Positions 33,191 to 53,781 of a stretch of DNA of 64,000 nucleotides are shown here, one piece after another. Below the pieces are notes generated by a model, which saw only the letters and a program-made list of their open reading frames with translations, did no database searches and was not told the DNA's origin. The DNA comes from Candidatus Dojkabacteria bacterium. GTDB taxonomy: Bacteria > Patescibacteriota > Dojkabacteria > B142 > OLB20. Location of the stretch: positions 12,141 to 76,140 of the forward strand of contig JBHHUN010000001.1 of the NCBI GenBank assembly GCA_046753765.1, written 5' to 3'. Numbering within the stretch: position 1 is the first letter of the stretch; each line of letters begins with the position of its first letter. A program made the translations under genes and the position numbers.

Positions 33191-36100
33191 ATGCTGCCTT
33201 TGCATTTTACTGTCAAACAACTGCCATTTAGAGCATTCTATGGGAGATTACTCCGTGTATTCACCCTTTTTGCATCTTTCGTGATAGTCTCGGCCCTATT
33301 CCTGCTTGTATCCCAAACGGTGAGCGCTACAGTTAATAGCACAATGAACTTCCAGGGGAAGGTTGTAAATCTCTCCGACGGTACGAACATCGTAGCTGGT
33401 TCCCCGAGCTGTGTTGCAGCAGGCGCCGATACCTGTGACTTCAGGGCAAGCATATACACCGATTCTACAGGTGGAACACTCCTTTGGCAGGAACCACAAA
33501 GTAACGTTGAGCTAGGTGACTATGAGGGTGTGTTTAATCTTTCACTAAACTCTGTGTGTGCCAGCTGGAGCAGCCCCGGCGGTAGCTGTTCAGGTTCAGG
33601 CCTAACGTGGGGGAGTGATTCAACGATCTATCTGCAGATAGAGTTTGATGATGACGGTAACGGCGACTTTGTCAGTGCTGAGACATTTACCAGAAAACTG
33701 CTGACTAGTGTCCCTTACGCCTACGAGGCTGATCAGCTTGATGGTATTGACTCAACCGGGTTTGTCCAGCTTGCGCCAGGCAGTGTACAGACAACCGGGA
33801 ATACCACTAATCCATTGATCTATCTAAACGAAAATGGTACCGGAACGCCTAATTTGCTACAACTGCAAGTCGCCGGCAGTGATATCGCAACCATAAATAA
33901 TTCAGGCGATCTCACCATAACGGGTGATGCAAACATCAATGGGGGCACTATCAACTCCACCTCTGTGTTGACTTTCAACGACAGTAACACTTTGGATATT
34001 GCCTTTAGTGATGCTTCCAACACTACGTTGCCAGTAGGTACAAATTCCATTTTGCACGCATTAAATGCTGCATCTGGAGGTGGAGGCGGGCTCTGGACCA
34101 TCAATGCTAACGTAACCTATCTTACCTCCTCTGGTTCAGATCTATCGCTCGCTTCCACCTTAGTATCTGCATTCAGTGTTGATGAAAGCGAAAACCTGGT
34201 TAGAGTAGGAGACGGTTCTTCCAGCAACGGTAAGATCGACTTCTACTCATCAACTGGGGATACGGGGAGATTTGAATACATAACAGACACACTGCAGTGG
34301 AGTGGAGGGAGTGTGAGAATTGCCAATAATACGTCTGTAAATTTCGGATCCTCAGATCAGATACAGGTTCTTTACGACAGCACTACTGATACGAGGCTGG
34401 AATTTTCAGATGGCACTAATTTACTGCTCGCACTTGATGACGCGGGCACTACCGGCGATCTCCTTGTTACCGGAACTGTAAGTATCGGAGGAAGCTCAAA
34501 TGATGTGCTAGCAACCAGTGCAGCAGCGGGGGCTGCTACCAGCAGTTTATACTGGGGAAACCAGACAGTGTGTCTTGCTGACGGAACTGGTTGCAGCACT
34601 GACTACGGACTCTGGGAGGCGCTATCTTTTAATACAGGTGCCAATACTGGAACATTTGAAAACGACAACGATGTAATCGTTGGAACGTGGGCTGGTGACG
34701 ATACGCCATTGACCAATACCGGCTTTGTTTTAGACAGTACCACAGCAGACGATCTTTTTGTACTCGATCTGCTTGGTGTTGGGGATAGTTTGTACGTAGA
34801 AAACAACATCGTTGCCGGAAGTGGAGCACTTACGCTTAGTGACAGTGGTATTACAGATGGCGACTCGAATCTTGTGCTTACTGCAACGGGGGCAAATGTA
34901 GTCCAGATCAGTGATGCCCTTACTGTGACTGGCGGAACTGCTACATTCTCGGGCGGTAACGTTATTGTGCAGCATACAACACCTTATGACATCGTTATTG
35001 ATAATTCGACGGTAGGAGTTCCAACGGGAGGGAATCTGGCAAGCGATTCAGGCTACCTAACTCTCAGGGGAAACTTCTTTGACGATACCCCTGACACTGA
35101 CACTGAGCTCGACATGAGCTTGCTTATGGACGTTACTGACGGTTCCACATATCGGCTTGGATTTTATAACGATGGAAAGGCAGCTGAGATTGGAAGCCTT
35201 GATGAGTCAGGGAATCTACAGGTTGACGGAACACTTAATCTAGGTACAAACACTGCAGACGTACTTAGCGTTGGAGCTGGAACTGCAGCAAATGGTGATC
35301 TCTACTGGGGTGACGATCTGCTTTGTGATACAAGTCAGTCCAATTGTGGATGGGCAGCTGGTGGATCGACGCTCTTCACTGACGGAGGGACACTCACGTA
35401 TCTTACACAGACAGCCGATGATTTTGCCATCGGCGGAAGTGCCTTGGCCTCACCATTTAGTGTGGACACAGATATAAATACAGTGAGGATTGGTGACGGG
35501 ACTAGTGACGTTAATGATCCAACAGTGACTTTCTATGCCAGCAATGCAGTCGATTCCGGAAGTATTATCTATCTGGATGCGGACGGGTTTCAGTTTAGCG
35601 GTGGAGATGTGCTAGTAGGAGCTGCGAGCGAAACTATAGCGGGTGCAGGGTTCGTATTGAACGGGGACGATCTGTTCGTAAACGGCCAGCTTGGTGTTGA
35701 GGGAGATATCTACACAGACGCAGATCTTACACTTCAATCAGATGTAGACACGACTGGAGTAGGGGATATCACTATTAACTTCGGAGGAACGAACACGGAG
35801 ACCATTGCCTGGATAGCATCGCTTGACGGTTTCCAGGTATCGGACGATCTTTTGCCTTCCACTGATGACGCACTTGATCTTGGTTCGAATACGCTAAGAT
35901 GGCGTGATCTTTACACAGGCCCCGGGACGATACATGTAGGAACATCAACCTCAGATGAAGGTACCCTCAGCTATAACACAACCACAAATGACTTAGCCAT
36001 TGAGAGCACTGGAGATCTGGTTCTCTTAAGTGGGGGTGGATATGTAGGGATTGGAACTGCAACGACAACTGCATTTCTGGATATAACCGCTCCTACCACC

Positions 36101-39100
36101 AGTGCGGCACAGATTAACTTAAGCCCTTCTGTCGCTGTCGATCCTAGTGCTCCAGTTAATGGTGACATGTGGTACAACGGTACTAATCTCAACTTCTATA
36201 ACGGGTCAGTGACGACAGATCTACTAGCCGGGTCGTCAAGTCTATGGACTGATGGCGGAACATTGACCTATCTAACAAGCACAACAGATGATGTTGTATT
36301 TGGAGGAACAACAAGCGCAGGGCCATTCTTCTTTGATACAAGTGCTGGCAAGCTGACACTGAACACTGTTGGAGCTGGAGCGGGGATAGCTCTTGGCGAT
36401 GACACTCTACTTTATGATGGTGGAACCAATTTAATTCAGACAGCTGACTCATTCACAATAGGCGGACAGCTCACAGTGTCGTCAACGGGCTCTAGCGGTG
36501 GACTTGTCATTGGCGATGACACAAATTTGTACGACAACGGTACGAATCTGTTACAGACAGATGACTCATTCACTGTTGGTGGGGCTTTAAGTGTTACTGG
36601 TGGAGCTGCAACTGTTTCAGGTGGTGGTTTGACAGTCACTGGTGGCAATGTATTAGTGCAGGGGACAACCCCACTTGATGTAATAGTTGATAACTCTACT
36701 ACAGGCACAACAGCTAATTCTGGGGCTTTATATCTGCGGGGTAATTACTTCAATGTAAGTGATACCGAGATAGATATGAGTATCCTTCTTAATGTTACAG
36801 ATAATACCGATTACAAGATAAGTTTCTATGATGACGGCCAGGTAGCAGAAGTTGGTAGCATTGACCAGAGTGGGAATCTGCAGGTTGATGGCAATTTTAA
36901 TCTAGGAACAGATACTGCTGATGTGTTGAGTGTAGGGACAACAGGGTCGACTGCTATAGGTGATCTCTATTGGGGTGATGATCTTATTTGTGACTCAAGC
37001 CAAGCCAACTGTGGTATTGCTTTTGGCGGATCCTCACTGTTTACAGATGGAGGGGCACTCACATACTTAACTCAAACAACAGATGATTTCTCAGTTGGAG
37101 GAACAGCGCTTGCTTCGGCATTTAGCGTTGATGTTTCCGCAAACACAGTAAGGATTGGGAGTGGTGCAACAGCCGATGCAGTTTTAAGCATGTTTGCCAG
37201 TGACGCAAGTACAGGCACAATCACATTCACTACAAGTGACAGGTGGGAGTTTTCAGGCGGGGATATATTGTTATCCGATGACCAGTCAATGTTCTTTGGG
37301 ACCGATGCAGACGCTTTCTTTAGGTATGACGAGCTTACAGATAACAGGCTGGAATTTGGATTTGGCGCAAACCAGTTCGGTTACATCGATGATGTTGCTG
37401 CTCAAACATATGGCGACTTCCTCTTTAATGGAACAACTACGTTGGGAACGGGTCTGGCAGGTACTGAAACTGCTCTTTACATTAATCCGACGACCGGATT
37501 CACAGGTACGCTTCTAGATATCGATGTCAATGGTAGTGATATCTTTGCAGTTTCCACTACGGGAATTACAGCCAATGTACCTGCTACATTTGCCAGTGCA
37601 GGGGACGTACAGATAGCGAACGATCTTGCATTTACGAATTCGACTTCATCAAACATCACCTCTGATGCACCTCTATATATTACTGCAGGTGATATTGCCA
37701 GTAGCGAAGATCTGTATCTCTCCGCGAACAACGCAGGATATGTGATTGTAGATGATCGACTTGAGGTAGCAGACTTAATACACCTTGGAAATGCGAGTGC
37801 AAACAACTATCTGGCAACCAGCGTTCAGACAAATACACCGACAACAGACCTGTATTGGGGGGATAAACTCGTTTGTGATGTCAGTGAGGCAAACTGCGGG
37901 AATATCTGGACAGACTCAGGAACGGTCTCATACCTGACTAGCACAACCGATGACTTTGCAATAGGGGGAACGTCTCTTACAGCGTCTCTCAGTATGGACG
38001 TTAGTGCTAACTTGCTCCGCGTCGGAACAGGTGCAACTGCGAACGGGAAGATAGATCTATACTCATCTAATGGAAATTCAGCTAGGCTTGAGTTGACCAC
38101 GACTGATACTGTCGAACTTAATAATGCGGGGTTCGTATTCAATCAGGCCGGAGATGCTGTTGATTTTGTTATCGAAGGTGATACCGATGCAAACCTGATA
38201 ACAGCAGATGGTAGTACCGATAGGGTTGGAATCGGTGTAGCTGTGCCTGATGCATTCTTTGATGTTAAGCCTGCGACAGCCGGAAGTGCTTCGATTAACA
38301 TTTCATCTTCTGCAACAGTTAATCCTTCGGTGCCGGTAGATGGTGACATGTGGTACAACGGTACAAATTTATACTTCTATGATGGGTCTAGTACTATAGA
38401 CATCCTTGCAGGCGGATCTGGATCGAGCAAGTGGACAGATGGAGGAACGTTAACATATTTAACCAGCATTACGGATGATCTTGCAGTCGGTGCTTCAAGT
38501 GCTGTTGCTCCTTTATATATTGATGTTGATACTAACCTAATAAGAATTGGAGATGGTGCAAGTGATGTCAATGATCCTACACTGACATTTTATGCGAGTG
38601 ATGCTGTAGATAGCGGAAGTTTGATCTTCCAGGATGACGATTCATTCTTTTTAAGTGGCGGATCGGTAATGATTGGAGCTGCAGCAGAAACAATTGCCGG
38701 TACAGGCTTCGTTGTTGACGGTGACGACGTATTTATAGCAGGTATGCTCGGTGTCGAAGGTGACATCTATTCCGATGGTGATCTATATATTCAATCGGAC
38801 TTAGATACTACCCTAGCTGGAGATATATCGATCAATTTTGGGGGCACTAACACTGAGATACTTAAATGGGATGCAACTAATGATGCCTTCAGCTTATCTG
38901 ATGACTTCCTCCCTGCTACCAATGATGTCAGTACATTAGGCATAGATACACTACGTTGGGCCGACCTCTTCCTGGGGCCGAATACGTTGCACATTGGAAC
39001 CTCAACATCTGATGAAGGTACTGTCAGTTACGACACAACAGCAAATAATCTCCTGATTGATTCAACGGGTAACCTCGTCCTGCTGAATGGTGGTGGCAAC

Positions 39101-42100
39101 GTTGGTATAGGTACAACCACAACTAATGCCTTTCTTGATATTACAGCTCCAACGACAGCTTCTGCGCAACTCAATCTATCCCCATCGATAGCAGTTGATC
39201 CTTCTGCACCAGTAGATGGTGACATGTGGTACAACGGCACAAATCTATACTTCTATGATGGATCGAGTAATACAGATCTTCTAGCGGGCGGGGGTAGCAC
39301 GTTGTTTACTGACGGTGGAGCAGTGACGTACCTCACAAGTACAACAGATGACTTCGCCCTTGGTGGATCAACATTAGCAGCGTCAGTGTTTGCAGTTGAT
39401 GAGTCAACTGGAGACTTTTACTTTGGATCTGACAACACAACTGATCCCAGCTTACTCTTTGAAGCCTCAGACGCTGATGCCGGACAGATTGATTTTACTA
39501 CCAATGACCGCTTTGAACTGATCGGTGCCGGATTGCTGTTAGATGACGACCAGTCACTCTTCTTTGGCGCAAATGCAGATGCTTACTTCAGTTATGATGA
39601 GCTAACCGATGACCGTCTCGAGTTTGGCTTTGGGGCTAATCAATTCGGATACATTGATGATGTGACGGCCCAAACTTATGGAGACTTCAATTTCGCAGGA
39701 ACGACCAGCTTAGGTACGGCACTTGCAGGCACTGAAACAGCGTTGTACATCAATCCCACAACTGGATTTACTGGAACTTTACTTGATATTGATGTGGACG
39801 GGGCAGATATATTTACAGTAACTTCAACAGGCATTACAGCTGATGTCCCTGCAACATTTAACAGTGCTGGTGATGTGTCGATCGCTAACGATATCAACTT
39901 CACTAACGGCTCATCGTCAACTATCACTTCATTGGCACCGCTTTACATCACTGCTGGGGACGCAGTGAGCAACGACAGTTTGATCTTGAGTGCCCAAAAT
40001 GCTGGGTATGTAATTGTTGACGACCGCTTGCAGGTGGAGGATATAATTCATCTTGGAGGTTCAGCAGACAACTTCCTTGCAGCTTCATCACAAACTAATG
40101 CAGCAACCGATGACCTTTACTGGGGCGATAAACTGCTCTGTGACGCCAGTGTGGCAAATTGCGGATATGTAACCACAGCGCTTTGGGCTGATGGAACTAG
40201 CGGGTACTACAGCAACACAGAATCGGTAATTGTAGGTGCTGATGCAGCATTCAGTTATGTAACCACTCCCGGAGCGGGGGACTTAAAGGTGGCAGATGAT
40301 TTCGAAGCAGCAGATGATGGTTTTATAGGTGGGGATCTAGTTGTTGGTGCGTCAACAAGCTCGACAGACACAATCTCAGACGCTGGGTTTGTCCTTGGTG
40401 GAGATGACCTTTTTGTTGCTGGTCTGTTAGGGGTCGAAGGCGCTATTTATACAGATGATGATCTATATTTACAAACGGACATAGACACCACCCTGGCTGG
40501 AGATATATCGATCAATTTTGGGGGCACAAATACAGAGATATTCAAATGGGATGCAACGGCAGATGCCTTTGATCTTTCGGATGATATTACTGTAAATGGG
40601 AATATCACGATTTCTGGTGCAGCTGCCGGACTCGTCTATGCAAATGTAGCAACAGGAAGTGCGCCAACCTGTGATTCAACGACTGTCGGGACAACAATAT
40701 ACAACCGTGACGCTGCTGAGGACGGAACTATCTATCTGTGTAGGCAAAATACTGCAGGTGCATATGAGTGGAGAGACATTACAAACGGTGCTGGAACCCC
40801 TGACATAGCCGAGTTCGTTAGAACAAACGACACCACCATCGAAGCGGGTGATATTGTGAGCGTTTCACTAGAAGACTACCAAGAAGAGAATATCTACAAC
40901 CGCTTCCTTGTTGAGAAGTCAAACACTACCAATGTCGGTAGGCTTATGGGTATCATATCAACAGACCCTGGGATCTTACTTAACACGGCAAATGATCCCA
41001 ACGAACAGCAGGATCTTACAAACCTCCGCCCGCTGGCTCTTGCAGGTAGGGTACCAGTCAAAATATCAGCTGCATCAGCTGATATAGTCAAGGGTGATCC
41101 GATATCGGCTTCAGATAAGGATGGGCAGGGACAAAAACTTCAGGGCAGTGGGATGATTGTTGGTATCGCCCTTGAAGAATGGACATCTACTAGCGGAGAC
41201 ACAGATGTTATGGTGTTGATTAAGAATACTCACTATGATTCTGCGACTGAGGAAGGGACATTATATCTTGGGGAAAGTGGAAAGGGACTGATCTCCTTTA
41301 ATGAAGAGACTGGTACTTTTGAGTTTGACTCCAATGGAGACGGAATCCCAGAGATGAGCCTTGGTGAGAACAACGAGATTGAGGTTGCGCAAGATGTTCT
41401 TCCTAAGAGTTCGCCTGCGACCCTCACTGATGAGAGTGGTCAACAAATCACAGATGGAATTGATCTGGGCAGTCCGGAAGCCTATTTTGACGATGTTTAT
41501 GCAAACACATTCCATGGTCAGGATTTAGCGATCAATAATTTCGATGTTGCCGAAGAATACTTGGTTGAGGATATGACAATCATGGCAGGGGATGTGGTTA
41601 GATTCAAGAAGGACAGTTCTGACAGTCTCTTTGTTGAACGCACCGACGAAGCACAGGATAAATATGCGATTGGTGTGATAAGCACAAAGCCCGGCTTATA
41701 CTTAAAGGACTGGCAGGAAGACCGTGAGAGCGGTAGACCTGTAGCATTGGCGGGGCGTGTGCCTGTCAAAGTTACAGACGAGAATGGTCCAGTACACCGA
41801 GGTGACTTTTTGACTCCCGCAAGCACACCGGGCTACGCGATGAAGGCGGTGAGGGGTGGTGTGATAATCGGCAGGGCAATGGAAGATTTTGATCCAGATT
41901 TTTTCGATAGTGGGGACAGTGAGATGGTAACGGCCACGCTCGGGAGTGCACTCGCAACAGCTGAAGAAGAGATTGCAGAGCTGGTTGAAAGTGGGGAGCT
42001 TAGTGACGGGGAAGCAACCGAATTCTTGTACAGTATCCAGGAGGAGGTAACGGCTGAGTATGATGAACAAGAAGAAGCCGAGATGATTGAGAATGAGCTG

Positions 42101-42742
42101 ATGCAGGAAGGAACTGAAACTGCCCAACAGATAGCAAATTCCGAAAAAACCGATCCCAAAAAAGAACAGGCTCTTAAGAATCTACAAGATGACCTGGAAG
42201 CAGAGCTGCAAGACCAGGCAGAGTATACAAAAGGTCGAGTCATGATGTTTGTAGATGTCAGTTTTGTAAACAGTGAGATATTTGGTCAGAAAGATAATCT
42301 ACTATCCGCTCTAAAGATTGAAAGCTTTGCCCTTGCTAACGGAGACAATCTCTTTGAGATTAATGACAATGTGGAAAGTACAAAACTCAAGGTGAATGTC
42401 TCAGATCTGATCGTCGCCGGATCGCTCACAGTAGAAGGCGATCTAGATGTTCTTGGAATCCTCTTTGCGCAGGAGGCTGCAACAAATAGCCTATTTGTTG
42501 AACGAAAAATCAATGTCGGGACAGAAGACCACCAAGCCGCAGGCGAGGTGACTCTTAAAGGTGGTATGACAAAGATCACTGTTGAAAATAATCAAATAAC
42601 TCCATATTCCTCAGTCCATATAACAAAAGATCAGTTTGTCAATTACAGAGTCATAGACATGAAACCCGGAATTGGATTCACTATACAAATTGATGATGCT
42701 ATCGACAACGATACAGTCTTCAACTACTTCATTATTAACTAA
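33191..42742 (+). CDS. Giant secreted or anchored fibre-like protein (3183 aa) built from duplicated modules
   Basis: 9.55 kb ORF with ATG start and an N-terminal hydrophobic signal/anchor (VFTLFASFVIVSALFLLV). At least 8 copies of a LYWGDDL(L/I)CD..Q.NCG...LFTDGG.LTYLT.T.DDF..GG motif. Three large module types are each present twice at 75-85% aa identity. The C-terminus carries a twice-repeated roughly 140-aa domain (AGD.V......GVIST.PG......PLALAGRVPVKV...G.I..GD.L..S..PG.AMK), an acidic coiled-coil tract and a final roughly 160-aa domain. Confidence 0.7.
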   Translation: MLPLHFTVKQLPFRAFYGRLLRVFTLFASFVIVSALFLLVSQTVSATVNSTMNFQGKVVNLSDGTNIVAGSPSCVAAGADTCDFRASIYTDSTGGTLLWQEPQSNVELGDYEGVFNLSLNSVCASWSSPGGSCSGSGLTWGSDSTIYLQIEFDDDGNGDFVSAETFTRKLLTSVPYAYEADQLDGIDSTGFVQLAPGSVQTTGNTTNPLIYLNENGTGTPNLLQLQVAGSDIATINNSGDLTITGDANINGGTINSTSVLTFNDSNTLDIAFSDASNTTLPVGTNSILHALNAASGGGGGLWTINANVTYLTSSGSDLSLASTLVSAFSVDESENLVRVGDGSSSNGKIDFYSSTGDTGRFEYITDTLQWSGGSVRIANNTSVNFGSSDQIQVLYDSTTDTRLEFSDGTNLLLALDDAGTTGDLLVTGTVSIGGSSNDVLATSAAAGAATSSLYWGNQTVCLADGTGCSTDYGLWEALSFNTGANTGTFENDNDVIVGTWAGDDTPLTNTGFVLDSTTADDLFVLDLLGVGDSLYVENNIVAGSGALTLSDSGITDGDSNLVLTATGANVVQISDALTVTGGTATFSGGNVIVQHTTPYDIVIDNSTVGVPTGGNLASDSGYLTLRGNFFDDTPDTDTELDMSLLMDVTDGSTYRLGFYNDGKAAEIGSLDESGNLQVDGTLNLGTNTADVLSVGAGTAANGDLYWGDDLLCDTSQSNCGWAAGGSTLFTDGGTLTYLTQTADDFAIGGSALASPFSVDTDINTVRIGDGTSDVNDPTVTFYASNAVDSGSIIYLDADGFQFSGGDVLVGAASETIAGAGFVLNGDDLFVNGQLGVEGDIYTDADLTLQSDVDTTGVGDITINFGGTNTETIAWIASLDGFQVSDDLLPSTDDALDLGSNTLRWRDLYTGPGTIHVGTSTSDEGTLSYNTTTNDLAIESTGDLVLLSGGGYVGIGTATTTAFLDITAPTTSAAQINLSPSVAVDPSAPVNGDMWYNGTNLNFYNGSVTTDLLAGSSSLWTDGGTLTYLTSTTDDVVFGGTTSAGPFFFDTSAGKLTLNTVGAGAGIALGDDTLLYDGGTNLIQTADSFTIGGQLTVSSTGSSGGLVIGDDTNLYDNGTNLLQTDDSFTVGGALSVTGGAATVSGGGLTVTGGNVLVQGTTPLDVIVDNSTTGTTANSGALYLRGNYFNVSDTEIDMSILLNVTDNTDYKISFYDDGQVAEVGSIDQSGNLQVDGNFNLGTDTADVLSVGTTGSTAIGDLYWGDDLICDSSQANCGIAFGGSSLFTDGGALTYLTQTTDDFSVGGTALASAFSVDVSANTVRIGSGATADAVLSMFASDASTGTITFTTSDRWEFSGGDILLSDDQSMFFGTDADAFFRYDELTDNRLEFGFGANQFGYIDDVAAQTYGDFLFNGTTTLGTGLAGTETALYINPTTGFTGTLLDIDVNGSDIFAVSTTGITANVPATFASAGDVQIANDLAFTNSTSSNITSDAPLYITAGDIASSEDLYLSANNAGYVIVDDRLEVADLIHLGNASANNYLATSVQTNTPTTDLYWGDKLVCDVSEANCGNIWTDSGTVSYLTSTTDDFAIGGTSLTASLSMDVSANLLRVGTGATANGKIDLYSSNGNSARLELTTTDTVELNNAGFVFNQAGDAVDFVIEGDTDANLITADGSTDRVGIGVAVPDAFFDVKPATAGSASINISSSATVNPSVPVDGDMWYNGTNLYFYDGSSTIDILAGGSGSSKWTDGGTLTYLTSITDDLAVGASSAVAPLYIDVDTNLIRIGDGASDVNDPTLTFYASDAVDSGSLIFQDDDSFFLSGGSVMIGAAAETIAGTGFVVDGDDVFIAGMLGVEGDIYSDGDLYIQSDLDTTLAGDISINFGGTNTEILKWDATNDAFSLSDDFLPATNDVSTLGIDTLRWADLFLGPNTLHIGTSTSDEGTVSYDTTANNLLIDSTGNLVLLNGGGNVGIGTTTTNAFLDITAPTTASAQLNLSPSIAVDPSAPVDGDMWYNGTNLYFYDGSSNTDLLAGGGSTLFTDGGAVTYLTSTTDDFALGGSTLAASVFAVDESTGDFYFGSDNTTDPSLLFEASDADAGQIDFTTNDRFELIGAGLLLDDDQSLFFGANADAYFSYDELTDDRLEFGFGANQFGYIDDVTAQTYGDFNFAGTTSLGTALAGTETALYINPTTGFTGTLLDIDVDGADIFTVTSTGITADVPATFNSAGDVSIANDINFTNGSSSTITSLAPLYITAGDAVSNDSLILSAQNAGYVIVDDRLQVEDIIHLGGSADNFLAASSQTNAATDDLYWGDKLLCDASVANCGYVTTALWADGTSGYYSNTESVIVGADAAFSYVTTPGAGDLKVADDFEAADDGFIGGDLVVGASTSSTDTISDAGFVLGGDDLFVAGLLGVEGAIYTDDDLYLQTDIDTTLAGDISINFGGTNTEIFKWDATADAFDLSDDITVNGNITISGAAAGLVYANVATGSAPTCDSTTVGTTIYNRDAAEDGTIYLCRQNTAGAYEWRDITNGAGTPDIAEFVRTNDTTIEAGDIVSVSLEDYQEENIYNRFLVEKSNTTNVGRLMGIISTDPGILLNTANDPNEQQDLTNLRPLALAGRVPVKISAASADIVKGDPISASDKDGQGQKLQGSGMIVGIALEEWTSTSGDTDVMVLIKNTHYDSATEEGTLYLGESGKGLISFNEETGTFEFDSNGDGIPEMSLGENNEIEVAQDVLPKSSPATLTDESGQQITDGIDLGSPEAYFDDVYANTFHGQDLAINNFDVAEEYLVEDMTIMAGDVVRFKKDSSDSLFVERTDEAQDKYAIGVISTKPGLYLKDWQEDRESGRPVALAGRVPVKVTDENGPVHRGDFLTPASTPGYAMKAVRGGVIIGRAMEDFDPDFFDSGDSEMVTATLGSALATAEEEIAELVESGELSDGEATEFLYSIQEEVTAEYDEQEEAEMIENELMQEGTETAQQIANSEKTDPKKEQALKNLQDDLEAELQDQAEYTKGRVMMFVDVSFVNSEIFGQKDNLLSALKIESFALANGDNLFEINDNVESTKLKVNVSDLIVAGSLTVEGDLDVLGILFAQEAATNSLFVERKINVGTEDHQAAGEVTLKGGMTKITVENNQITPYSSVHITKDQFVNYRVIDMKPGIGFTIQIDDAIDNDTVFNYFIIN
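34940..35500 (+). repeat. Intragenic duplicated module C, copy 1 (copy 2 at about 36605-37165)
   Basis: The protein segment ATFSGGNVIVQHTTPYDIVIDNST...LYWGDDLLCDTSQSNCG...VRIGDG is repeated as ATVSGG...VLVQGTTPLDVIVDNST...LYWGDDLICDSSQANCG...VRIGSG. Coordinates are approximate, within about 15 nt. Confidence 0.6.
35485..36205 (+). repeat. Intragenic duplicated module B, copy 1 (copy 2 at about 38541-39265; partial third copy at about 40440-40600)
   Basis: VRIGDGTSDVNDPTVTFYASNAVDSG...INFGGTNTE...LRWRDLY...GDMWYNGTNLNFYNG versus IRIGDGASDVNDPTLTFYASDAVDSG...INFGGTNTE...LRWADLF...GDMWYNGTNLYFYDG. A stretch of more than 30 bp is DNA-identical (38816-38848 = 40496-40528). Confidence 0.65.
37195..37880 (+). 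repeat. Intragenic duplicated module A, copy 1 (copy 2 at about 39462-40150)
   Basis: ASDASTGTITFTTSDRWEF...LEFGFGANQFGYIDDVAAQTYGDF...ALYINPTTGFTGTLLDIDVNGSDIF...DLYWGDKLVCD versus ASDADAGQIDFTTNDRFEL...LEFGFGANQFGYIDDVTAQTYGDF...ALYINPTTGFTGTLLDIDVDGADIF...DLYWGDKLLCD. Confidence 0.65.
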
Positions 42743-42858: not shown

Positions 42859-43353
42859 ATGTATCAACAAAGTCAAAGAGAAGTGATTGGCACTCTGGAC
42901 AGTGATTCTGGGCGTTTAGTCGAGGGGTTGTTAAAACTGATCCTGCTAGTAGTGATCTTTTTGCTTGGTGGTCTTGCATATAAGTTAGCTAATGAGGGTG
43001 GAGTACTTCCTGAACAGTTGTCATCTGGTTCCCGATCGAGTGAGAATGTCAGCGCAGGAGGCAACAGTAGTAGCGAGTTGTCAGTGGAGGAGGCTGTTGA
43101 AAAGATAATGTTGATCTCAACAGATGAAACACCAACGGTTGCGACAATTGTTGATAGTGAAAAACTCAAACAAGCCAACCCGGATTTCTACCAGAACACA
43201 CTAGATGGAGACCAGCTGCTGATTTACAGCAACCGGGCGATCATTTACAGGGCTCAGGACGGTCTGATCATCAATGTCCTCCCCATCACGAGGGATGATC
43301 TAAAGGATTCGGTAACACAAGTTGCTGGGGAAGAGACGGAAGCTCTCGAATAA
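42859..43353 (+). CDS. Single-pass membrane protein with one copy of a roughly 55-aa repeat shared with 43740..44444 and 52657..53781
   Basis: N-terminal TM helix (LKLILLVVIFLLGGLAYKLA). The C-terminal region VATIVDSEKLKQANPDFYQNTLDGDQLLIYSNRAIIYRAQDGLIINVLPI matches the repeats in the other two proteins. No known-family match recognised. Confidence 0.5.
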   Translation: MYQQSQREVIGTLDSDSGRLVEGLLKLILLVVIFLLGGLAYKLANEGGVLPEQLSSGSRSSENVSAGGNSSSELSVEEAVEKIMLISTDETPTVATIVDSEKLKQANPDFYQNTLDGDQLLIYSNRAIIYRAQDGLIINVLPITRDDLKDSVTQVAGEETEALE

Positions 43354-43493
43354 GTCCCCTTGTTCATATCATTTGATCGGATATTTAGGCTGAATAGTGC
43401 ACTTGTTATCAGTTTCTTTCGGTCTCATATGACTCTCGGATAGAGTCTTTTTACAATAATGCATAAAAAATATCTTTTTTCTTGTACTAAATC

Positions 43494-43519
43494 TTGACTC
43501 GACTGAATATATCTATAAT
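43494..43519 (+). promoter_or_regulatory. Orphan promoter-like element TTGACT-14-TATAAT in a long intergenic region
   Basis: TTGACT at 43494-43499 and TATAAT at 43514-43519. The 14 nt spacer is shorter than optimal. It lies about 50 nt upstream of a strong hairpin terminator. Confidence 0.2.
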
Positions 43520-43569
43520 AATGAATTAGCTTTTTGCACTTGTAACTATTTTAGCTGCCTAAGCTTTAC

Positions 43570-43610
43570 AAAAAATTCAAGCCTGCACAGCTTGAATTTT
43601 TTCTTTTTAC
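43570..43610. terminator. Rho-independent (bidirectional) terminator hairpin
   Basis: Perfect 13-bp inverted repeat AAAAAATTCAAGC (43570-43582) / GCTTGAATTTTTT (43590-43602) around a 7-nt loop. It is flanked by an A-run on the 5' side and TTCTTTTT on the 3' side. Confidence 0.5.
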
Positions 43611-43739
43611 CCACAAACGAGCATTCAATATTTGTGAATATTATGTTGGCATAGACCTCTTGATCTGATAGTCTGTATCTACACCCAATTTTTACTGTTT
43701 GTTTGGTACTTCTTATTCATAAATATTAGAATCACAACA

Positions 43740-44444
43740 ATGCACGCACAAAACTTGCCCACAAACAATCAACCCACTGCAAATCAGATGGGGCATCCCT
43801 CACCAACTTCGGCTCCCTCTAGAGGAAGCAAAATAGCTGTCCTCTTTGGAATTGCAGTTGTCTTGTTTGTCCTTCAATTGGTAACACTGTATTTAGTAGT
43901 GAATCCGCCTTACCTTGCTCAGCAGAACCTTACAAGACAGGTAATAGATGAGGTATCCCAGATGGTCGAAGTAAATCCATTTGAAACACCTATTGTTAGT
44001 GTTGTTGCAGATGCGGAAAGCTTAAGGTCCGCTAATAACATCCAGGGAGATGTCTATGCAAACGCACAGGACGGTGACTATGTTCTTGGATTTTCAGATA
44101 AGATGGTAATCTATCGAAGAGAGACTGGAGAGGTTGTTTATGAGGGGGAGAGTCCCGGATCGATACTAAATAAAAACCAACAGAATCTTAGACAGAGCGT
44201 TATCAACGCAGCTCAAACAAAGGGTCTTATCCCTGAGGGAGAAGAGGTAAATCCACAAATGTCTGTGGTCACAGATCCTGCGGTACTGCGTAGCCAGGAT
44301 GCCAGTTTCTACGCAAACGTACAGGAAGGTGACGTTATTGCTGTATTTCCTAGCAAACAACTGATAGTGCTTGTAAGGGCAAATGAGTCAGGAACATCGG
44401 TTATACAGTCAGGAAGCTATACAACCTCAATAAACTCTAACTAA
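43740..44444 (+). CDS. Single-pass membrane protein with two copies of the shared roughly 55-aa repeat
   Basis: TM helix (IAVLFGIAVVLFVLQLVTLYLVV). Repeat 1: IVSVVADAESLRSANNIQGDVYANAQDGDYVLGFSDKMVIYRRETGEVVYEG. Repeat 2: MSVVTDPAVLRSQDASFYANVQEGDVIAVFPSKQLIVLVRANESGTSVIQSG. Confidence 0.5.
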   Translation: MHAQNLPTNNQPTANQMGHPSPTSAPSRGSKIAVLFGIAVVLFVLQLVTLYLVVNPPYLAQQNLTRQVIDEVSQMVEVNPFETPIVSVVADAESLRSANNIQGDVYANAQDGDYVLGFSDKMVIYRRETGEVVYEGESPGSILNKNQQNLRQSVINAAQTKGLIPEGEEVNPQMSVVTDPAVLRSQDASFYANVQEGDVIAVFPSKQLIVLVRANESGTSVIQSGSYTTSINSN

Positions 44445-45681: not shown

Positions 45682-47754
45682 ATGGCTAAACAGCTACATA
45701 ATCTCCTTCTTGGAAAACATTTCGGGATTGAGACAACGCTAGTGGATCATAAAGACAGCGGATACAAATTAAAGAACGCCACCCTATTCAGAATTCCTCA
45801 GTACCTAACACCCAAGCATTTAGACGATTCAGAAACGATTGGGCGTGACATCATTTATGCTAACGATGCAGACACCTGGGGGACAAAACTGTCGGCCAGG
45901 TATATGATTGTACCAAACCAATCGAGCAGTGTAGAGATTTCTCAGCTTAGTCAGGTACTTGATAGAAAACTGGCGGTGATCGAGCTGACGTTTGACTACA
46001 TAAAAATAACGTCAGACTCTGACGACGTGATGATCCCCTTTGACGGTGAACAGCTCTCCCTCACGAAGAGCGTGCGAAAGTTAGCTAAGGATATGGGACT
46101 CAGTAACTCAAAATTGACATCGGCGCTAATTAACGCTCCCGTAGTTGCAACAGACGTTCTCTCAAAAGTGTTTAACGCACGGTTGCTGATGCAGATTCTG
46201 CGTTCCCAATCTATACAACTTTTAGAGTTTGAGCAGGTGATATTTACTGGTGAGATGGTCTGGAGTAGATGGGTTGATATCTCAGGGATACTTGCGATAT
46301 TTGAGCTTATCTTTGCAGGCAGAAAAGTTGAGATTCTCATTGACTTCAACGCGATTTTTCAACTTTTACTAATGTCAGAATTGAAGATAAAAGAATTGAG
46401 TCGACTGAACGGTGAGCTCCTGAAGCCTCAGGTTACGTGGATAGATGACAGGTCGCTTCTGACCAAAAATCGAAAACTGCATGAGTTGGATCTCAAGAAA
46501 AAGGGGGGAGAAAAAAAACTAATCCTTACGAAAGACAGGATCGGACTGTTTGATCTTAGAGAGAGTGGATATAAGTTAGCTGGAAGAGAAATTACGAGGT
46601 ATATCTATATCAATGTGTTCGTTAGTGTTGCTAGGCTTGTCGATAGCGCGAATACAAAAAAATACGAACAGGCATGGGTGCAACCGTTGGAATGGGATAG
46701 TCAGTATGCAAATGTAAAATATTGGCCTCTGCCAAGACTATGGGTAGATGAGTCACAACACATGTTGAGCCAAAGTGATTTCTCGAGCTACAGTCTGGAT
46801 CTCAATAAGGGAAGCAAGGTAAGCGACAATCAAGACTTTGGAAAGTATACAAGTAGTACAATGACGGTTTTCAATTACCAAAGTCATGCCGGTGAAATTA
46901 AAAGTCACTTGCAGGTTAACGATCACCAGCATGTAAAAAAGGGATCGCGGCTAACGATAGTTCCTACACTGGGAGGTGTCTGGGATAAGTACCTAACTGC
47001 GCCACACGACGGCAGAATTGATCTCAGGCTCATTGATGATGGAATAATTCTTCTTAAGGTAGATGAAGAAAAAGCTCTTAACTTCAGGTTTCCGATGCAT
47101 ATTAGTAACAAGCTGAAATCGGGTGGATTTGTTTTTAAAGCAACATCACTAAACTTCCCCCTGGCACAGTGGTCTGGCAGACAGGTCTCTGGCTATTTGG
47201 CATCTTCTGTCACAGAGGTTGATTCTGGTCAGAAGATCATAATAATGGACGATGTTTCAGAGTTTGACTTGAGCATTGAGAAGATATTTGAGAGGCAGAT
47301 CGCCGCGATTCTATTTCGCAGGTCTTCACGAAACTCATATGTAAACTTCATAAAATCCAATATCAGGCAGTTGAAGGTCTTGTCCTTTGGATTGCTAACT
47401 GGGTTTGAAGAGAAGATGGAAGCAGAGATAAAACTAAAGCTAGAAGAGTATCTGGGCGAGTTTGCTTTGATCGATAGGGGAGCACTCAGTATTCCATTAA
47501 ATGTCTCTAGATCAAAATTTGTAATGGGTAATAGTGACGACACTCGGCAGTTAAGCTTTAGTCTAAAGGATTTTACCGGTCAGCTTTGTAAGGGAGAAAC
47601 AATCAAAGTTTTTAGTTATCTTGACACAGAAGCTTATGTTAGAATAGAGAAGGTTCATTCCGACAGTGATGCACTTGGGGTTAATAGCACAGGTGCATTT
47701 GACTTTAATATCATTAATTCACAGCCCTTAATCTTAAGATATGGAACAGACTAA
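45682..47754 (+). CDS. Hypothetical protein (690 aa), no recognisable domain
   Basis: Long clean ORF with ATG start, no TM or signal peptide. It sits where rplI would be expected after rpsR. Its 3' end overlaps the ctpA start by 14 nt. No motif I can assign. Confidence 0.5.
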   Translation: MAKQLHNLLLGKHFGIETTLVDHKDSGYKLKNATLFRIPQYLTPKHLDDSETIGRDIIYANDADTWGTKLSARYMIVPNQSSSVEISQLSQVLDRKLAVIELTFDYIKITSDSDDVMIPFDGEQLSLTKSVRKLAKDMGLSNSKLTSALINAPVVATDVLSKVFNARLLMQILRSQSIQLLEFEQVIFTGEMVWSRWVDISGILAIFELIFAGRKVEILIDFNAIFQLLLMSELKIKELSRLNGELLKPQVTWIDDRSLLTKNRKLHELDLKKKGGEKKLILTKDRIGLFDLRESGYKLAGREITRYIYINVFVSVARLVDSANTKKYEQAWVQPLEWDSQYANVKYWPLPRLWVDESQHMLSQSDFSSYSLDLNKGSKVSDNQDFGKYTSSTMTVFNYQSHAGEIKSHLQVNDHQHVKKGSRLTIVPTLGGVWDKYLTAPHDGRIDLRLIDDGIILLKVDEEKALNFRFPMHISNKLKSGGFVFKATSLNFPLAQWSGRQVSGYLASSVTEVDSGQKIIIMDDVSEFDLSIEKIFERQIAAILFRRSSRNSYVNFIKSNIRQLKVLSFGLLTGFEEKMEAEIKLKLEEYLGEFALIDRGALSIPLNVSRSKFVMGNSDDTRQLSFSLKDFTGQLCKGETIKVFSYLDTEAYVRIEKVHSDSDALGVNSTGAFDFNIINSQPLILRYGTD

Positions 47755-48967
47755 CAGCCCCAAAACAGCCACAAGAGTACTACTTATATTTATCGGCTTG
47801 GTAATATTTTTTGTGGTTGGGTTTTACCTCGGGAGGGTTGATTTAAACAATGCTGTGGCGGGTGGCCCCGAAGTGGATGGATATACGATTAGTGGTGAGC
47901 TAAAAGAGACCAGGGACAACGTCAACGTTAACCTCCTGTGGGAGGTCTGGTCACTTCTTGAGAGGGAGTACATTGAAAAGACAATCGTTGGTCAAGAGCT
48001 TCTGTATGGCTCAGTCAGGGGGTTAGTTTCAGGGCTAAACGACCCATACACAGCTTTCTTAACCCCAACGGAAACAAATGACTACTTCAGCGCGAACAAA
48101 GGTGAGTTTGAAGGTATTGGAACAACACTTCGTCAGGATGGTGAATTCGTCGCTGTCGAAAGCCCTATTGATGGTGCTCCAGCACAAAAAGCTGGGCTTG
48201 AACCGGGGGACCTGATTCTTGAGGTAGATGGTGAGGATATGCAGGGGATATCAGTATTCGAGGTGGCTGCGACTATCCGTGGAGAAGCAGGTACAGATGT
48301 AACGCTTTCGATCTTTCGACCGAAGAACAGTGAGCAATTTGATGTCACAATAAACAGGGCAAAGATCGATATTGATAATATTTCACTTGAACATCTTGAG
48401 GACGATCTTTACAAAGTTAAAATCTTTAAGTTTACAGAAGAATCTGTTCAGGCCTTCAATAACCAATGGGATGATGTCGTTTCACAGATAGAGAAAAAAA
48501 ACGCTAAAGCATTGGTCATTGACCTTCGCAATAATCCAGGTGGATTTGTAAACTCCGTTGAGTATGTACTTGGTGACTTCCTTAAAAAAGGTACACTGAT
48601 ATTCAGTGAAGAGGATAGAAATAGTAAAAAAGTTGAGCACAGAGTCGATAGAAATGGGAGACTCACAGATATGCCAATAGTTGTGATTGTTAACCAAGGA
48701 AGTGCATCTGCCTCAGAGATCTTTGCCGGCGCTCTCCAAGACCATAAGAGAGCCGAAGTGATTGGTACAGAGACTGTTGGAAAAGGCGTAGAGCAGCGCC
48801 TCATCACATTAAGTGATGGTTCAACACTACAGTTGGTATTTCAGAAGTGGCTTACACCAAGTGGGAAAAATATAAGTGAAGATGATCCTATTATGCCTGA
48901 CGAGGAAGTTAAGGAGTATCAGGAACAGGAGGATAAAGCGCTCGAGAAAATTAAATCACTATTATAA
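47741..48967 (+). CDS. ctpA: Carboxy-terminal processing protease (S41, Ctp/Prc) with PDZ
   Basis: N-terminal TM. PDZ (GLEPGDLILEVDGEDMQG). S41 motifs (DLRNNPGGFVNSV; GSASASEIFAGALQDHKRA). Confidence 0.85.
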   Translation: MEQTNSPKTATRVLLIFIGLVIFFVVGFYLGRVDLNNAVAGGPEVDGYTISGELKETRDNVNVNLLWEVWSLLEREYIEKTIVGQELLYGSVRGLVSGLNDPYTAFLTPTETNDYFSANKGEFEGIGTTLRQDGEFVAVESPIDGAPAQKAGLEPGDLILEVDGEDMQGISVFEVAATIRGEAGTDVTLSIFRPKNSEQFDVTINRAKIDIDNISLEHLEDDLYKVKIFKFTEESVQAFNNQWDDVVSQIEKKNAKALVIDLRNNPGGFVNSVEYVLGDFLKKGTLIFSEEDRNSKKVEHRVDRNGRLTDMPIVVIVNQGSASASEIFAGALQDHKRAEVIGTETVGKGVEQRLITLSDGSTLQLVFQKWLTPSGKNISEDDPIMPDEEVKEYQEQEDKALEKIKSLL

Positions 48968-52656: not shown

Positions 52657-53781
52657 ATGGCAAAAAAAGCCCCAAAAAGTAAGAAAACTAGCAAAAGAAA
52701 ATCTAGTAAAGCAAAAAAGTCAGAGAAAGAGACAGTAAAAAGGTCGGCAGAGAAAGATAAAGCAGAAAACTCAGATAAGTTTGTTCCTACGTTTCTTGGT
52801 GGTGCCAAGTCAAAAGCAGCCGCTAAGGCCAAGAAGGTGGAAGAGGTGGAAGAGGATGTTGTCGAAGAAGCCCCTGCCGAAGAAGAAGCCCCTGCTGAAG
52901 TTTCTGAGGAGAGTGAAGTAATAGGGAAAGAAACCGAAACAAATGCAGAGCCAGAAGATCAACCAGCAGGAAGCAGATTCAGTTCTCTTATGCGGGCAAA
53001 AGGTGAGGCAGACGAGGGTGCGATCGGTGGAGATGAGGAGGAAGACAAGGGGGAGAAAAAAAGCAAGAAGAGTTTCTATATCGTTGTTGGAGTATCACTT
53101 GTTTTAATAGTAATTGCTTTTGCCTATTTGCTTATTTCCCGGAATAATCAAACTTCAGAAGTAACACCAACGGATGATCAGATGACGACCGACACAACTG
53201 AGGTCGAACTTGTTCGGAGTACAGTCGATCTGTTGGCAGAGGTTGCTGAGCTCCCCAATGAGATCCCACTTGTTGCAACTATCAACGATTTGGAACAGTT
53301 TAAAGAAGTCGATGCAGCTTTTTATGCGAAAGCCTATATTGGTTATAAGGTTATCATATATCAAGAGTCAAATATGGTTTTTCTGTTCAATGAGACTACC
53401 AATAAGGTTGTAAATATCGGGACGCTAAGTCAGGTGCCGTCAATAGATGAGATTGAACTCGAAGAAACAACTGGCACGGTTGATGAGATTTCCGGACTAA
53501 CAATCTTGATTTTGAATGGAACAACAGCTCCTGGTATAACCCTCGGCTATCAAGGGGAGATAGAAGATCTTAGTGGCGATTACACTGTCACCGACAGGGC
53601 CACAGCTGAGATCCTTGGGTATGCTGAAACAAAGCTGTATGACCTCACAGATGGTACAAAAGAAAACAATATTAAAACTCTTGCAGATGCTCTTGGGATT
53701 GAAGTGGTCGAAGGTCTACCTAATGCCGAACTAGAATCAGATACGGATGTCGTGATAATCTTGGGAGAAGACAGGATTTAG
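52657..53781 (+). CDS. Membrane protein with K/E-rich N-terminal tail, one copy of the shared roughly 55-aa repeat and a C-terminal LytR_C-like domain
   Basis: The N-terminal 130 aa are Lys/Glu/Ala-rich and of low complexity. TM helix (FYIVVGVSLVLIVIAFAYLLI). Repeat: LVATINDLEQFKEVDAAFYAKAYIGYKVIIYQESNMVFLFNETTNKVVNIG. The C-terminus LTILILNGTTAPGIT...TKLYD...TDVVIILGED resembles the LytR_C pattern (V.VLNGtg..G.A......v.vvLG.D). Confidence 0.55.
   Translation: MAKKAPKSKKTSKRKSSKAKKSEKETVKRSAEKDKAENSDKFVPTFLGGAKSKAAAKAKKVEEVEEDVVEEAPAEEEAPAEVSEESEVIGKETETNAEPEDQPAGSRFSSLMRAKGEADEGAIGGDEEEDKGEKKSKKSFYIVVGVSLVLIVIAFAYLLISRNNQTSEVTPTDDQMTTDTTEVELVRSTVDLLAEVAELPNEIPLVATINDLEQFKEVDAAFYAKAYIGYKVIIYQESNMVFLFNETTNKVVNIGTLSQVPSIDEIELEETTGTVDEISGLTILILNGTTAPGITLGYQGEIEDLSGDYTVTDRATAEILGYAETKLYDLTDGTKENNIKTLADALGIEVVEGLPNAELESDTDVVIILGEDRI

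What the first reader, a model, noticed from the sequence alone, without database searches (positions are those of the whole stretch)
42859..44444. Small family of single-pass membrane proteins sharing a roughly 55-aa repeat (third member at 52657-53781, fused to a LytR_C-like domain)
Three proteins begin with one TM helix and carry the same module 1, 2 and 1 times. The module pattern is (V/I)(A/V)T(I/V).D.E.L(K/R)..(N/D)..FY.N.Q.GD..(L/I)......(I/V)IY......V, for example:
- VATIVDSEKLKQANPDFYQNTLDGDQLLIYSNRAIIYRAQDG
- VVADAESLRSANNIQGDVYANAQDGDYVLGFSDKMVIYRRETG
- VVTDPAVLRSQDASFYANVQEGDVIAVFPSKQLIVLVRANESG
- VATINDLEQFKEVDAAFYAKAYIGYKVIIYQESNMVFLFNETT

The 52657 member adds a Lys/Glu-rich cytoplasmic tail and a C-terminal LytR_C-like domain, which hints at a cell-envelope role. 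I do not recognise the 55-aa module as a named domain.
Basis: seen in the sequence. Interest (0 to 1): 0.5.

Follow-up and report, generated by a model that had tools for sequence, protein, structure and literature searches.

The report
Uncatalogued envelope module of CPR bacteria
Three membrane-anchored proteins in this Dojkabacteria (CPR) window share a real, well-folded outer-surface module that no domain database lists, that is very widespread in ultra-small CPR bacteria, and that often sits directly after genes for giant fibre-like surface proteins, which suggests a helper or anchor role.

Summary
Three ORFs each have one TM helix and carry the same module once, twice and once: A at 42859-43353, B at 43740-44444 and C at 52657-53781. 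All six pairwise comparisons beat 2000 of 2000 shuffles. A profile built only from foreign homologues recognises all four copies (HHalign 95-99.5%).

It is not a small family. There are 6687 cluster representatives, almost all from Patescibacteria, in three recurring architectures that mirror A, B and C.

A new finding is the gene order. About a quarter to a third of module genes, including A, lie directly downstream of a giant fibre-like gene. These giants carry a Peptidase_G2-like domain and a shared C-terminal domain.

My best reading is a non-catalytic, membrane-tethered extracytoplasmic adaptor for envelope or fibre assembly. The function is inferred, not shown. It is a new domain family of moderate interest.

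The parts
42859..43353 (+). Gene A, 164 aa: one TM helix plus one module. It lies 117 nt downstream of the 3183-aa giant ORF on the same strand.
   Evidence: NCBI: hypothetical protein ACE5DX_00195
42919..42975 (+). A: the only hydrophobic (TM) segment, residues 21-39
   Evidence: KD19 = 2.43; AF2 helix 18-45
43078..43296 (+). A: module, residues about 74-146. Elements are helix 76-83, b1 93-96, helix 100-106, b2 119-122, b3 126-131 and b4 136-142.
   Evidence: pLDDT is 92-96 over residues about 91-140.
43431..43602 (+). Non-coding spacer between A and B. It holds two terminator-like hairpins (43431-43447, 43570-43602) and a promoter-like site (43494-43522), so B is probably transcribed separately from A.
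   Evidence: consensus scans only; no Rfam family
43740..44444 (+). Gene B, 234 aa: one TM helix (residues 32-50) plus two modules in tandem
   Evidence: An orthologue with 45% identity over both modules is in L168.
43926..44180 (+). B: module 1, residues about 63-147
   Evidence: (95.3 bits)
44184..44441 (+). B: module 2, residues about 149-234
   Evidence: (81.0 bits)
52657..53781 (+). Gene C, 374 aa: Lys/Glu-rich tail, TM helix, module, linker and LytR_C domain
52657..53061 (+). C: N-terminal Lys/Glu-rich tail, presumed cytoplasmic, residues 1-135 (29 K+R, 34 D+E). The 40 aligned proteins have much shorter N-termini.
53080..53136 (+). C: TM helix, residues 142-160
53206..53448 (+). C: module, residues about 184-264. 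The conserved GD motif is replaced by GY.
53497..53772 (+). C: LytR_C domain, residues 281-372
33191..42742 (+). Giant ORF, 3183 aa, directly upstream of A. It has an N-terminal hydrophobic anchor or signal and no Pfam family. It is the likely partner of A.
40802..41182 (+). Giant: first copy of the 120-aa 'DxAE...GRVPVK' domain (Peptidase_G2-like), residues 2538-2664
41531..41905 (+). Giant: second copy of the same domain, residues 2781-2905. It is 37-51% identical over 111-126 aligned residues to 13 giants that precede module genes in other genomes, and more weakly similar to a 14th (36% over 90 aa).
   Evidence: Close homologues pass Pfam's cut-off for PF11962.
42449..42739 (+). Giant: extreme C-terminal domain ('GFTI...FNY/W'). 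It is shared with fibre-type proteins that carry either the G2-like or the S74 domain upstream of module genes.

Best explanation
A, B and C are members of a very large, uncatalogued protein family that is essentially restricted to Patescibacteria (CPR). They are bitopic membrane proteins with the N-terminus inside the cell and the C-terminus outside. The outer part is made of one or more copies of a 75-80-aa non-catalytic alpha/beta module: a helix followed by beta-alpha-beta-beta-beta.

I propose that the module is a binding or scaffolding unit of the cell envelope.
- In proteins like A, it is tethered to the membrane directly after a giant fibre-like surface protein gene. There it acts as that fibre's extracytoplasmic partner, in docking, anchoring or assembly help.
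- In proteins like C, the same module is joined to a LytR_C domain. In mycobacteria that domain links LytR_C-solo proteins (VirR, Cei) to cell-wall LCP ligases. C-type proteins would therefore couple the module's ligand to the wall machinery.
- B is the tandem two-module version.

Shown here: homology of the four copies, the fold, the distribution of the family, its architectures, the identity of the LytR_C domain, and the gene-order association.

Inferred, not shown: the topology, the lack of enzymatic activity, and the partnership with the fibre.
For: Homology and family size:
- The four copies are homologous.
- An exhaustive profile search finds 6687 representatives at E<=1e-3 and 5344 at E<=1e-10.
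- Among the 265 proteins fetched there are 173 with one module, 50 with two, 40 with one module plus a C-terminal extension, and one each with three and four modules. 31 of the 41 proteins in the alignment of C with the 40 extension proteins hit PF13399 LytR_C.
- The record titles of 80 GTDB loci are overwhelmingly Saccharibacteria, Gottesman-, Nomura-, Kaiser-, Paceibacterota and similar groups.

Fold:
- The AF2 models are confident: module pLDDT is above 90 in A, and 89-95 for the module and 91-98 for LytR_C in C.
- No catalytic family matches.
- Tandem repetition (1-4 copies) is typical of binding or spacer modules.

Topology:
- Each protein has a single hydrophobic segment, and in B and C the Lys/Arg residues lie before it.
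- The LytR_C domain is extracytoplasmic in characterised proteins (PMC11832169).

Gene order, starting from the module (80 GTDB loci):
- The upstream neighbour is at least 700 aa in 27 of 83 cases. The figure is 7 of 83 for the downstream neighbour and 9% for all genes (binomial p = 4e-9).
- 23 of 84 upstream neighbours carry the fibre G2-like domain and/or the shared C-terminal domain.
- Proper gene calls on 5 contigs show the same pattern.

Gene order, starting from the giant's domain (80 metagenome loci found without using the module):
- 27 of about 77 giants with downstream sequence have a module gene as the very next gene. It is on the same strand, with gaps of -3 to 124 nt.
- Only about 1-2% of other genes in those loci are module genes.

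The giants:
- The window giant shares this domain with those giants at 37-51% identity.
- Close homologues of the domain pass Pfam's threshold for PF11962, the Peptidase_G2 IMC autoproteolytic domain.
- A B-type orthologue lies two genes downstream of a Peptidase_S74 (endosialidase-chaperone) fibre protein.
Against: - No experiment or interaction prediction links the module to the fibre. I could not run co-folding.
- Two thirds or more of module genes, including C and most LytR_C-type members, are not next to a giant gene. The fibre partnership therefore cannot be the family's only role.
- The 80 giant-seeded loci were ranked by similarity to one giant whose own locus contains a module gene. 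That may inflate the 35% figure.
- The gene calls for the statistics came from my own simple ORF picker.
- The positive-inside signal for A is weak.
- Neither PHROGs nor the viral structure library gave a match between the module and any phage protein.
Confidence: 0.5

Rival explanations
1. The module is a general cell-wall or membrane-proximal binding or spacer module, comparable in role to SPOR, LysM, PASTA or POTRA-type repeats. It has no specific tie to fibres. Its position after giant genes only reflects clustering and co-regulation of surface-protein genes.
For: - Most family members are not adjacent to giants.
- The LytR_C fusion points to the wall rather than to fibres.
- Tandem repeats of 1-4 copies occur.
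- Other secreted or TM families and a Beta-lactamase2-type protein recur in the same neighbourhoods.
Against: - The adjacency is directional. The giant is upstream in 27 of 83 cases and downstream in 7 of 83.
- The module gene is the immediately next gene, with short gaps, in 27 of about 77 loci seeded from the giant. That is tighter than loose clustering.
- The module shows no sequence or fold match to any known wall-binding domain.
Confidence: 0.25
2. The module is a PepSY-like or cystatin-like regulatory domain. It holds a secreted hydrolase or synthase in check or in place, as the bitopic PepSY-type proteins YpeB (with SleB) and YpmB/TseB do in Bacillus. The Bacillus examples come from my own knowledge and were not tested here.
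- The overall layout is the same: one TM helix followed by small alpha+beta modules, sometimes in tandem.
- One JGI record names a family member 'YpmB'.
- A Beta-lactamase2-type serine hydrolase recurs nearby.
Against: - No PepSY hit (PF03413) appears in any of 122+41 members, even at E<=1.
- No PDB sequence hit to YpeB or YpmB appears with either profile.
Confidence: 0.15
3. The module is a diverged half of a LytR_C domain.
For: - The two domains are fused in about 15% of members.
- Both begin beta-alpha-beta-beta at the level of secondary structure.
Against: - Profile-profile comparison of the module against the whole LytR_C domain, its first half and its second half gives probabilities of 0.2-6.4%.
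- The LytR_C part of the C model matches solved LytR_C proteins. The module part matches other folds.
Confidence: 0.03
4. The similarity among the four segments is due to chance or composition.
For: Some single-sequence HHalign pairs are weak: A-B2 27%, B1-C 3% and B2-C 9%.
Against: - 0 of 2000 shuffles reach the observed score for any pair.
- All four copies are recognised by an independent profile at 95.5-99.5%.
- Thousands of homologues exist.
Confidence: 0.01

Closest known systems
LytR_C-solo proteins VirR (Rv0431) and Cei (Rv2700) of Mycobacterium tuberculosis
   Same: - Gene C has the same layout: an N-terminal TM anchor, an extracytoplasmic LytR_C domain and no LCP catalytic domain.
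- These proteins maintain envelope integrity and contact LCP ligases through LytR_C (PMC11832169).
   Different: - C carries the extra module between the TM helix and LytR_C, and a 135-aa Lys/Glu-rich tail.
- A and B have no LytR_C domain at all.
- Sequence identity to Rv2700 is only 16%.
- Whether this genome encodes an LCP enzyme was not determined.
Bitopic PepSY-type proteins (YpeB, YpmB/TseB) and cystatin-like domains
   Same: - Both have a single TM helix followed by one or more small helix-on-sheet modules outside the membrane.
   Different: - There is no sequence-profile relationship.
- The conserved motif ETPTVAT.xD...FF..A.nGDkvLIY...ailY is unique to this family.
Fibre gene followed by a small helper gene in phages (tail fibre plus tail-fibre assembly protein), and tailspikes with intramolecular chaperones (phi29 gp12 Peptidase_G2, endosialidase Peptidase_S74)
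   Same: - The gene order is the same: a large fibre-type gene followed at once by a small gene on the same strand.
- The upstream giants carry a domain whose close homologues pass Pfam's cut-off for Peptidase_G2, or a Peptidase_S74 domain.
   Different: - The small protein here is membrane-anchored and cellular.
- It has no PHROG or BFVD match.
- The window giant itself does not reach any Pfam threshold, and the G2 match covers only profile positions about 28-100 of 228.
- The comparison with Tfa-type chaperones rests on gene order only. It comes from my own knowledge and is not a tested relationship.

Membership tests
LytR_C (PF13399), for the C-terminal domain of gene C | Match to the Pfam profile at or above the gathering score | tested here: inconclusive
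   C alone scores 15.2 bits against a cut-off of 22.2 (E 0.043), but the match spans profile positions 2-85 of 86. 31 of the 41 proteins in the alignment of C with 40 module-plus-extension proteins match PF13399, with a best E of 3.8e-11.
LytR_C (PF13399), for the C-terminal domain of gene C | Same fold as solved LytR_C domains | tested here: met
LCP (LytR-CpsA-Psr) glycopolymer ligases | Presence of the catalytic LCP domain | tested here: not met
   No LCP-domain hit appears in A, B or C, even at E<=10. C is therefore a LytR_C-solo type protein.
PepSY (PF03413), for the module | Profile match | tested here: not met
   No PepSY-domain hit appears for A, B or C at E<=10. PF03413 is also not among the 25 most frequent families that one search lists for 122 members at E<=1, nor among the families that one search lists for 41 members at E<=0.01. 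Only PepSY_TM (the TM region) appears, in 7 members.
PepSY (PF03413), for the module | Fold match to solved PepSY-type domains | tested here: inconclusive
LytR_C half-domain, for the module | Detectable profile-profile similarity of the module to LytR_C or to either of its halves | tested here: not met
   hhalign probabilities are 0.2-6.4%.
Peptidase_G2 / IMC autoproteolytic domain (PF11962), for the giant upstream of A | Profile match at or above the gathering score | tested here: inconclusive
   The window giant has no Pfam hit. Proteins that match the domain profile at E of about 1e-36 to 1e-40 score 26.9-32.2 bits against a cut-off of 25, but the match covers only about positions 16-100 of the 228-position profile.
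Peptidase_G2 / IMC autoproteolytic domain (PF11962), for the giant upstream of A | Autoproteolytic cleavage site and release of the chaperone part | not testable with these tools
   This needs protein chemistry.
Phage tail-fibre assembly proteins, for A | Sequence or fold similarity to known Tfa or chaperone families | tested here: not met
   PHROGs gives 0 families for A, B and C. BFVD Foldseek gives no hit with E<=0.001.

The most novel reading that the evidence does not exclude
The module proteins are the membrane-tethered, extracytoplasmic docking or assembly factors of a CPR-specific system. That system builds giant trimeric fibre proteins, which carry phage-tailspike-type intramolecular chaperone domains, on the surface of ultra-small episymbiotic bacteria. 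The LytR_C-fused paralogues tie the same system to the cell wall. If so, a single uncatalogued domain would mark the loci for the host-attachment apparatus across Patescibacteria.
Probability: 0.25. Interest if true: 0.7.

Novelty: new variant of a known kind. Interest (0 to 1): 0.5.

Why it matters
CPR/Patescibacteria make up a large share of bacterial diversity, live attached to other microbes, and encode many giant surface proteins whose biogenesis is unknown.

This domain is found in thousands of these genomes. It folds confidently, has no database entry, and has two informative links. One is a fusion to LytR_C, which points to the cell wall. The other is a position directly after fibre-type giant genes. 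Together these give a concrete handle for two things:
- naming a new domain family, which is an annotation gain for thousands of 'hypothetical proteins';
- designing experiments on how episymbionts assemble and anchor their attachment fibres, for example in cultivable Saccharibacteria.

If the fibre link turns out to be incidental, the result is still a well-defined new envelope domain, but of ordinary interest.

Tried and rejected
- Domain libraries: Pfam, NCBIfam and PHROGs scans of A, B and C, and Pfam scans of 122+41 relatives, gave nothing for the module. The scattered weak hits (DUF6377, SpoIIIAH, SoxE_N, PepSY_TM) most likely reflect the TM region.
- PDB sequence search with two profiles gave nothing significant. 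A weak bulb-lectin hit (E 0.11) was dismissed as chance.
- LytR_C half-domain idea: rejected by hhalign.
- First GTDB scan: the alignment was too diverse for pattern extraction. I repeated it with a closer set. That biases the 80 loci towards members carrying the ETPTVATVxD motif, so two-module (B-type) genes are absent from that sample.
- From memory, the recurrent neighbour families looked like WxL, DUF916 or cohesin proteins. Pfam did not support this, so I dropped the idea.
- The 185-aa ORF after C has a homologue next to the B-type gene in L168. Apart from that, only one weak hit appeared in the 166 loci. I treat this as an unconfirmed lead.
- Literature searches for this family in CPR, and for giant-protein chaperones in CPR, found nothing relevant.
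- Rfam and tRNA scans of the window found nothing.

Full report
**What is there**

The window comes from a Candidatus Dojkabacteria (CPR/Patescibacteria) MAG. NCBI calls A (42859-43353, 164 aa), B (43740-44444, 234 aa) and the 3183-aa ORF before A 'hypothetical protein' ACE5DX_00195, ACE5DX_00200 and ACE5DX_00190. C is at 52657-53781 (374 aa). Each of the three proteins has exactly one strongly hydrophobic segment.

**Check of the observation**

- In Smith-Waterman comparisons of the four module segments, no pair was reached by any of 2000 shuffles. The z scores run from 7.0 to 19.2.
- Single-sequence HHalign is strong for A-B1 (95%), B1-B2 (88%) and A-C (80%), but weak for the other three pairs.
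- I therefore built a profile from 116 database homologues only. It recognises A, B1, B2 and C at 99.5, 97.2, 95.5 and 98.9%.
- A six-frame scan of the window with the module HMM finds these four copies and nothing else.
An amphipathic helix ('VGKLILLP' in most members) precedes the core, giving 75-80 aa.

**Size and spread of the family**

- A word-indexed search with A found only 5 relatives. The profile found 416.
- The exhaustive HMMER search of 1.84 billion representatives found 6687 at E<=1e-3 and 5344 at E<=1e-10.
- The 265 proteins fetched fall into these classes:
  - 173 with one module (about 125-170 aa, like A);
  - 50 with two modules (about 210-250 aa, like B);
  - 40 with one module plus a C-terminal extension (like C);
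  - one each with three and four modules.
- All source names are 'hypothetical' or obviously spurious.
- The 80 GTDB species-representative loci are almost all Patescibacteria: Saccharibacteria, Gottesman-, Nomura-, Kaiser-, Yanofsky-, Giovannonibacteria, Paceibacterota, Microgenomates and Levyibacteriota.
- A few are labelled Gammaproteobacteria, Nitrospira, Burkholderiaceae or Babeliales. The 13 such loci I checked have 35-49% G+C, like the rest of the set, so mis-binning or mislabelling is likely. I did not prove this.

**What the module is not**

- It has no Pfam-A, NCBIfam or PHROG family.
- It has no PDB sequence relative with either profile.
- It is not a LytR_C half. hhalign of the module profile against the LytR_C part of the same proteins, whole or in halves, gives 0.2-6.4%.

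**Structure**

- AF2 with a 122-sequence alignment gives pLDDT 92-96 over A residues about 91-140. The elements are helix 76-83, b1 93-96, helix 100-106, b2 119-122, b3 126-131 and b4 136-142.
- The C model (41 sequences) repeats this fold and adds a linker of low confidence and a LytR_C domain at pLDDT 91-98.
  - This is a generic helix-on-sheet resemblance of PepSY/cystatin type, not evidence of homology.
- 31 of the 41 proteins in the alignment of C with 40 module-plus-extension proteins hit PF13399.
- C's C-terminal domain is therefore a LytR_C domain, although C alone is below Pfam's cut-off.

**Conservation**

Numbering follows A, and the values come from 319 modules (positions +3).

| Position | Most common residue | Frequency |
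|---|---|---|
| P92 | Pro | 97% |
| D118 | Asp | 97% |
| Y130 | Tyr | 97% |
| G117 | Gly | 92% |
| D99 | Asp | 91% |
| E90 | Glu | 88% |
| L103 | Leu | 88% |
| A114 | Ala | 87% |
| F110 | Phe | 82% |
| 111 | Phe or Tyr | 100% aromatic |

C is unusual because it has Tyr in place of D118.

**Topology (inferred)**

- In B and C, the Lys/Arg residues lie before the TM segment.
- LytR_C is extracytoplasmic in characterised proteins (PMC11832169).
- The modules should therefore face outwards.

**Gene neighbourhood: the new information**

- A starts 117 nt after the stop of the 3183-aa ORF. No terminator-like site lies between them. Two terminator-like hairpins and a promoter-like site lie between A and B.
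- With public gene calls, 4 of 5 single-module homologues on long contigs follow a large protein directly. The sizes are 1701, 1465, at least 2539 and 782 aa. The fifth has a 1525-aa Collagen+Peptidase_S74 protein two genes downstream.
- In the 80 GTDB loci found through the module:
  - the upstream neighbour is at least 700 aa in 27 of 83 cases;
  - the downstream neighbour is at least 700 aa in 7 of 83 cases;
  - the background for all genes is 9% (p = 4e-9).
- The window giant and 14 of these 30 upstream large (at least 600 aa) proteins share a 120-aa domain, 'GADLAExY...GDVVSLD...GVISTxPG...ALAGRVPVKV.TENGPI..GD.LT.SS.PGVAMKA'.
  - The window giant has two copies, at residues 2538-2664 and 2781-2905.
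  - Many also share a C-terminal 'GFTI...FSW' domain.
  - The window giant has no Pfam hit. Proteins closely matching the domain profile pass Pfam's cut-off for PF11962, the Peptidase_G2 IMC autoproteolytic domain, over profile positions about 16-100.
- Reciprocal test: 80 metagenome loci were retrieved with the giant's domain alone.
  - 27 of about 77 giants with sequence downstream have a module gene as the next gene, on the same strand, with gaps of -3 to 124 nt.
  - 6 more have a module gene elsewhere in the locus.
  - Both single-module and LytR_C-type genes occupy this slot.
- A B-type orthologue (45% identical to B) lies two genes after a fibre protein with a bona fide Peptidase_S74 domain.
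- The association is real and directional, but partial. Roughly a quarter to a third of module genes show it, and C does not.

**Interpretation**

The data fit a non-catalytic, membrane-tethered extracytoplasmic adaptor.
- A is the partner of the upstream fibre-type giant.
- C is a VirR/Cei-like LytR_C-solo protein with the extra module.
- B is a two-module variant.

The fibre partnership is an inference from gene order. A general envelope-binding role and a PepSY-like regulatory role remain open.

**Novelty**

The family is absent from the domain libraries tested, and the literature searches found no description of it. It is a new domain family within a familiar class, namely bitopic envelope proteins with small repeatable ectodomains. 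I therefore rate it as a new variant of a known kind, with moderate interest.

Noticed in passing
window 18304-26457, 26450-32869, 33191-42742 (+): Three giant ORFs in a row (2717, 2139 and 3183 aa). The first two contain 9 and 6 Laminin_G_3 repeats plus DUF2341. The first also has Toxin_R_bind_N and sialidase-N-like stretches. The third has no Pfam family at all.
   Followed up: partly
window 40802-41182, 41531-41905 and 42449-42739 (+): The 3183-aa protein has two copies of an uncatalogued 120-aa 'DxAE...GRVPVK' domain and a C-terminal 'GFTI...FNY' domain. Both are shared with many large CPR proteins, and with some proteins labelled Elusimicrobiota, Omnitrophota, Bipolaricaulia and Nanoarchaeota. 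Close homologues of the first domain reach Pfam PF11962 (Peptidase_G2). PHROG 6427 (unknown function) matches at E 2.6e-14.
   Followed up: partly
L168 1221-1667; L128 gene 1; L048 gene 2; L031 gene 3: A second, unrelated family of small single-TM proteins (about 148-156 aa, no Pfam) sits in the same position downstream of fibre-type genes. It sometimes appears instead of the module gene and sometimes next to it.
   Followed up: partly
window 52657-53061 (+): C has a 135-aa Lys/Glu-rich N-terminal tail (29 K+R, 34 D+E), whereas the 40 aligned proteins have much shorter N-termini. C's exact sequence is not in the 15-billion-protein collection, so its start may have been called differently; Met112 is the only other Met before the TM helix.
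   Followed up: no
window 53876-54433 (+): A 185-aa ORF directly after C has no Pfam family. A homologue (26.6% identity over 192 aa, E 2e-4) lies directly after the B-type gene in L168. Apart from that, only one weak hit appeared in the 166 loci.
   Followed up: partly
window 43354-43739: A 386-nt AT-rich non-coding spacer lies between A and B. It has two terminator-like hairpins and a 10-of-12 promoter-like site. No Rfam family and no tRNA were found anywhere in the window.
   Followed up: partly
L007-L166 (neighbours of module genes): Several neighbour families recur:
- at +1, a secreted Thr/Ala-rich protein of about 360-450 aa (36 members in 29 loci);
- at +2/+3, a protein of about 320 aa with a signal peptide and a C-terminal TM helix (29 members in 16 loci);
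- a 334-aa TM protein with a Beta-lactamase2 domain;
- a protein of about 336 aa with a signal peptide and a C-terminal TM helix.
None of the four has a BLAST match (E<=1e-4) in this window.
   Followed up: partly
window 45682-47754 (+); 47741-48967; 48986-50218: A 690-aa ORF after the rpsF-ssb-rpsR-like genes has no Pfam family. It is followed by an S41 (CtpB-like) protease with a PDZ domain and an HtrA-like trypsin-PDZ protease.
   Followed up: no
L021, L030, L034, L036, L042, L043, L047, L052, L054, L063, L074, L075, L085: The GTDB records carrying the module that are labelled Gammaproteobacteria, Nitrospira, Burkholderiaceae or Babeliales have 35-49% G+C, like the CPR loci. This suggests mislabelled or mis-binned contigs.
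   Followed up: partly
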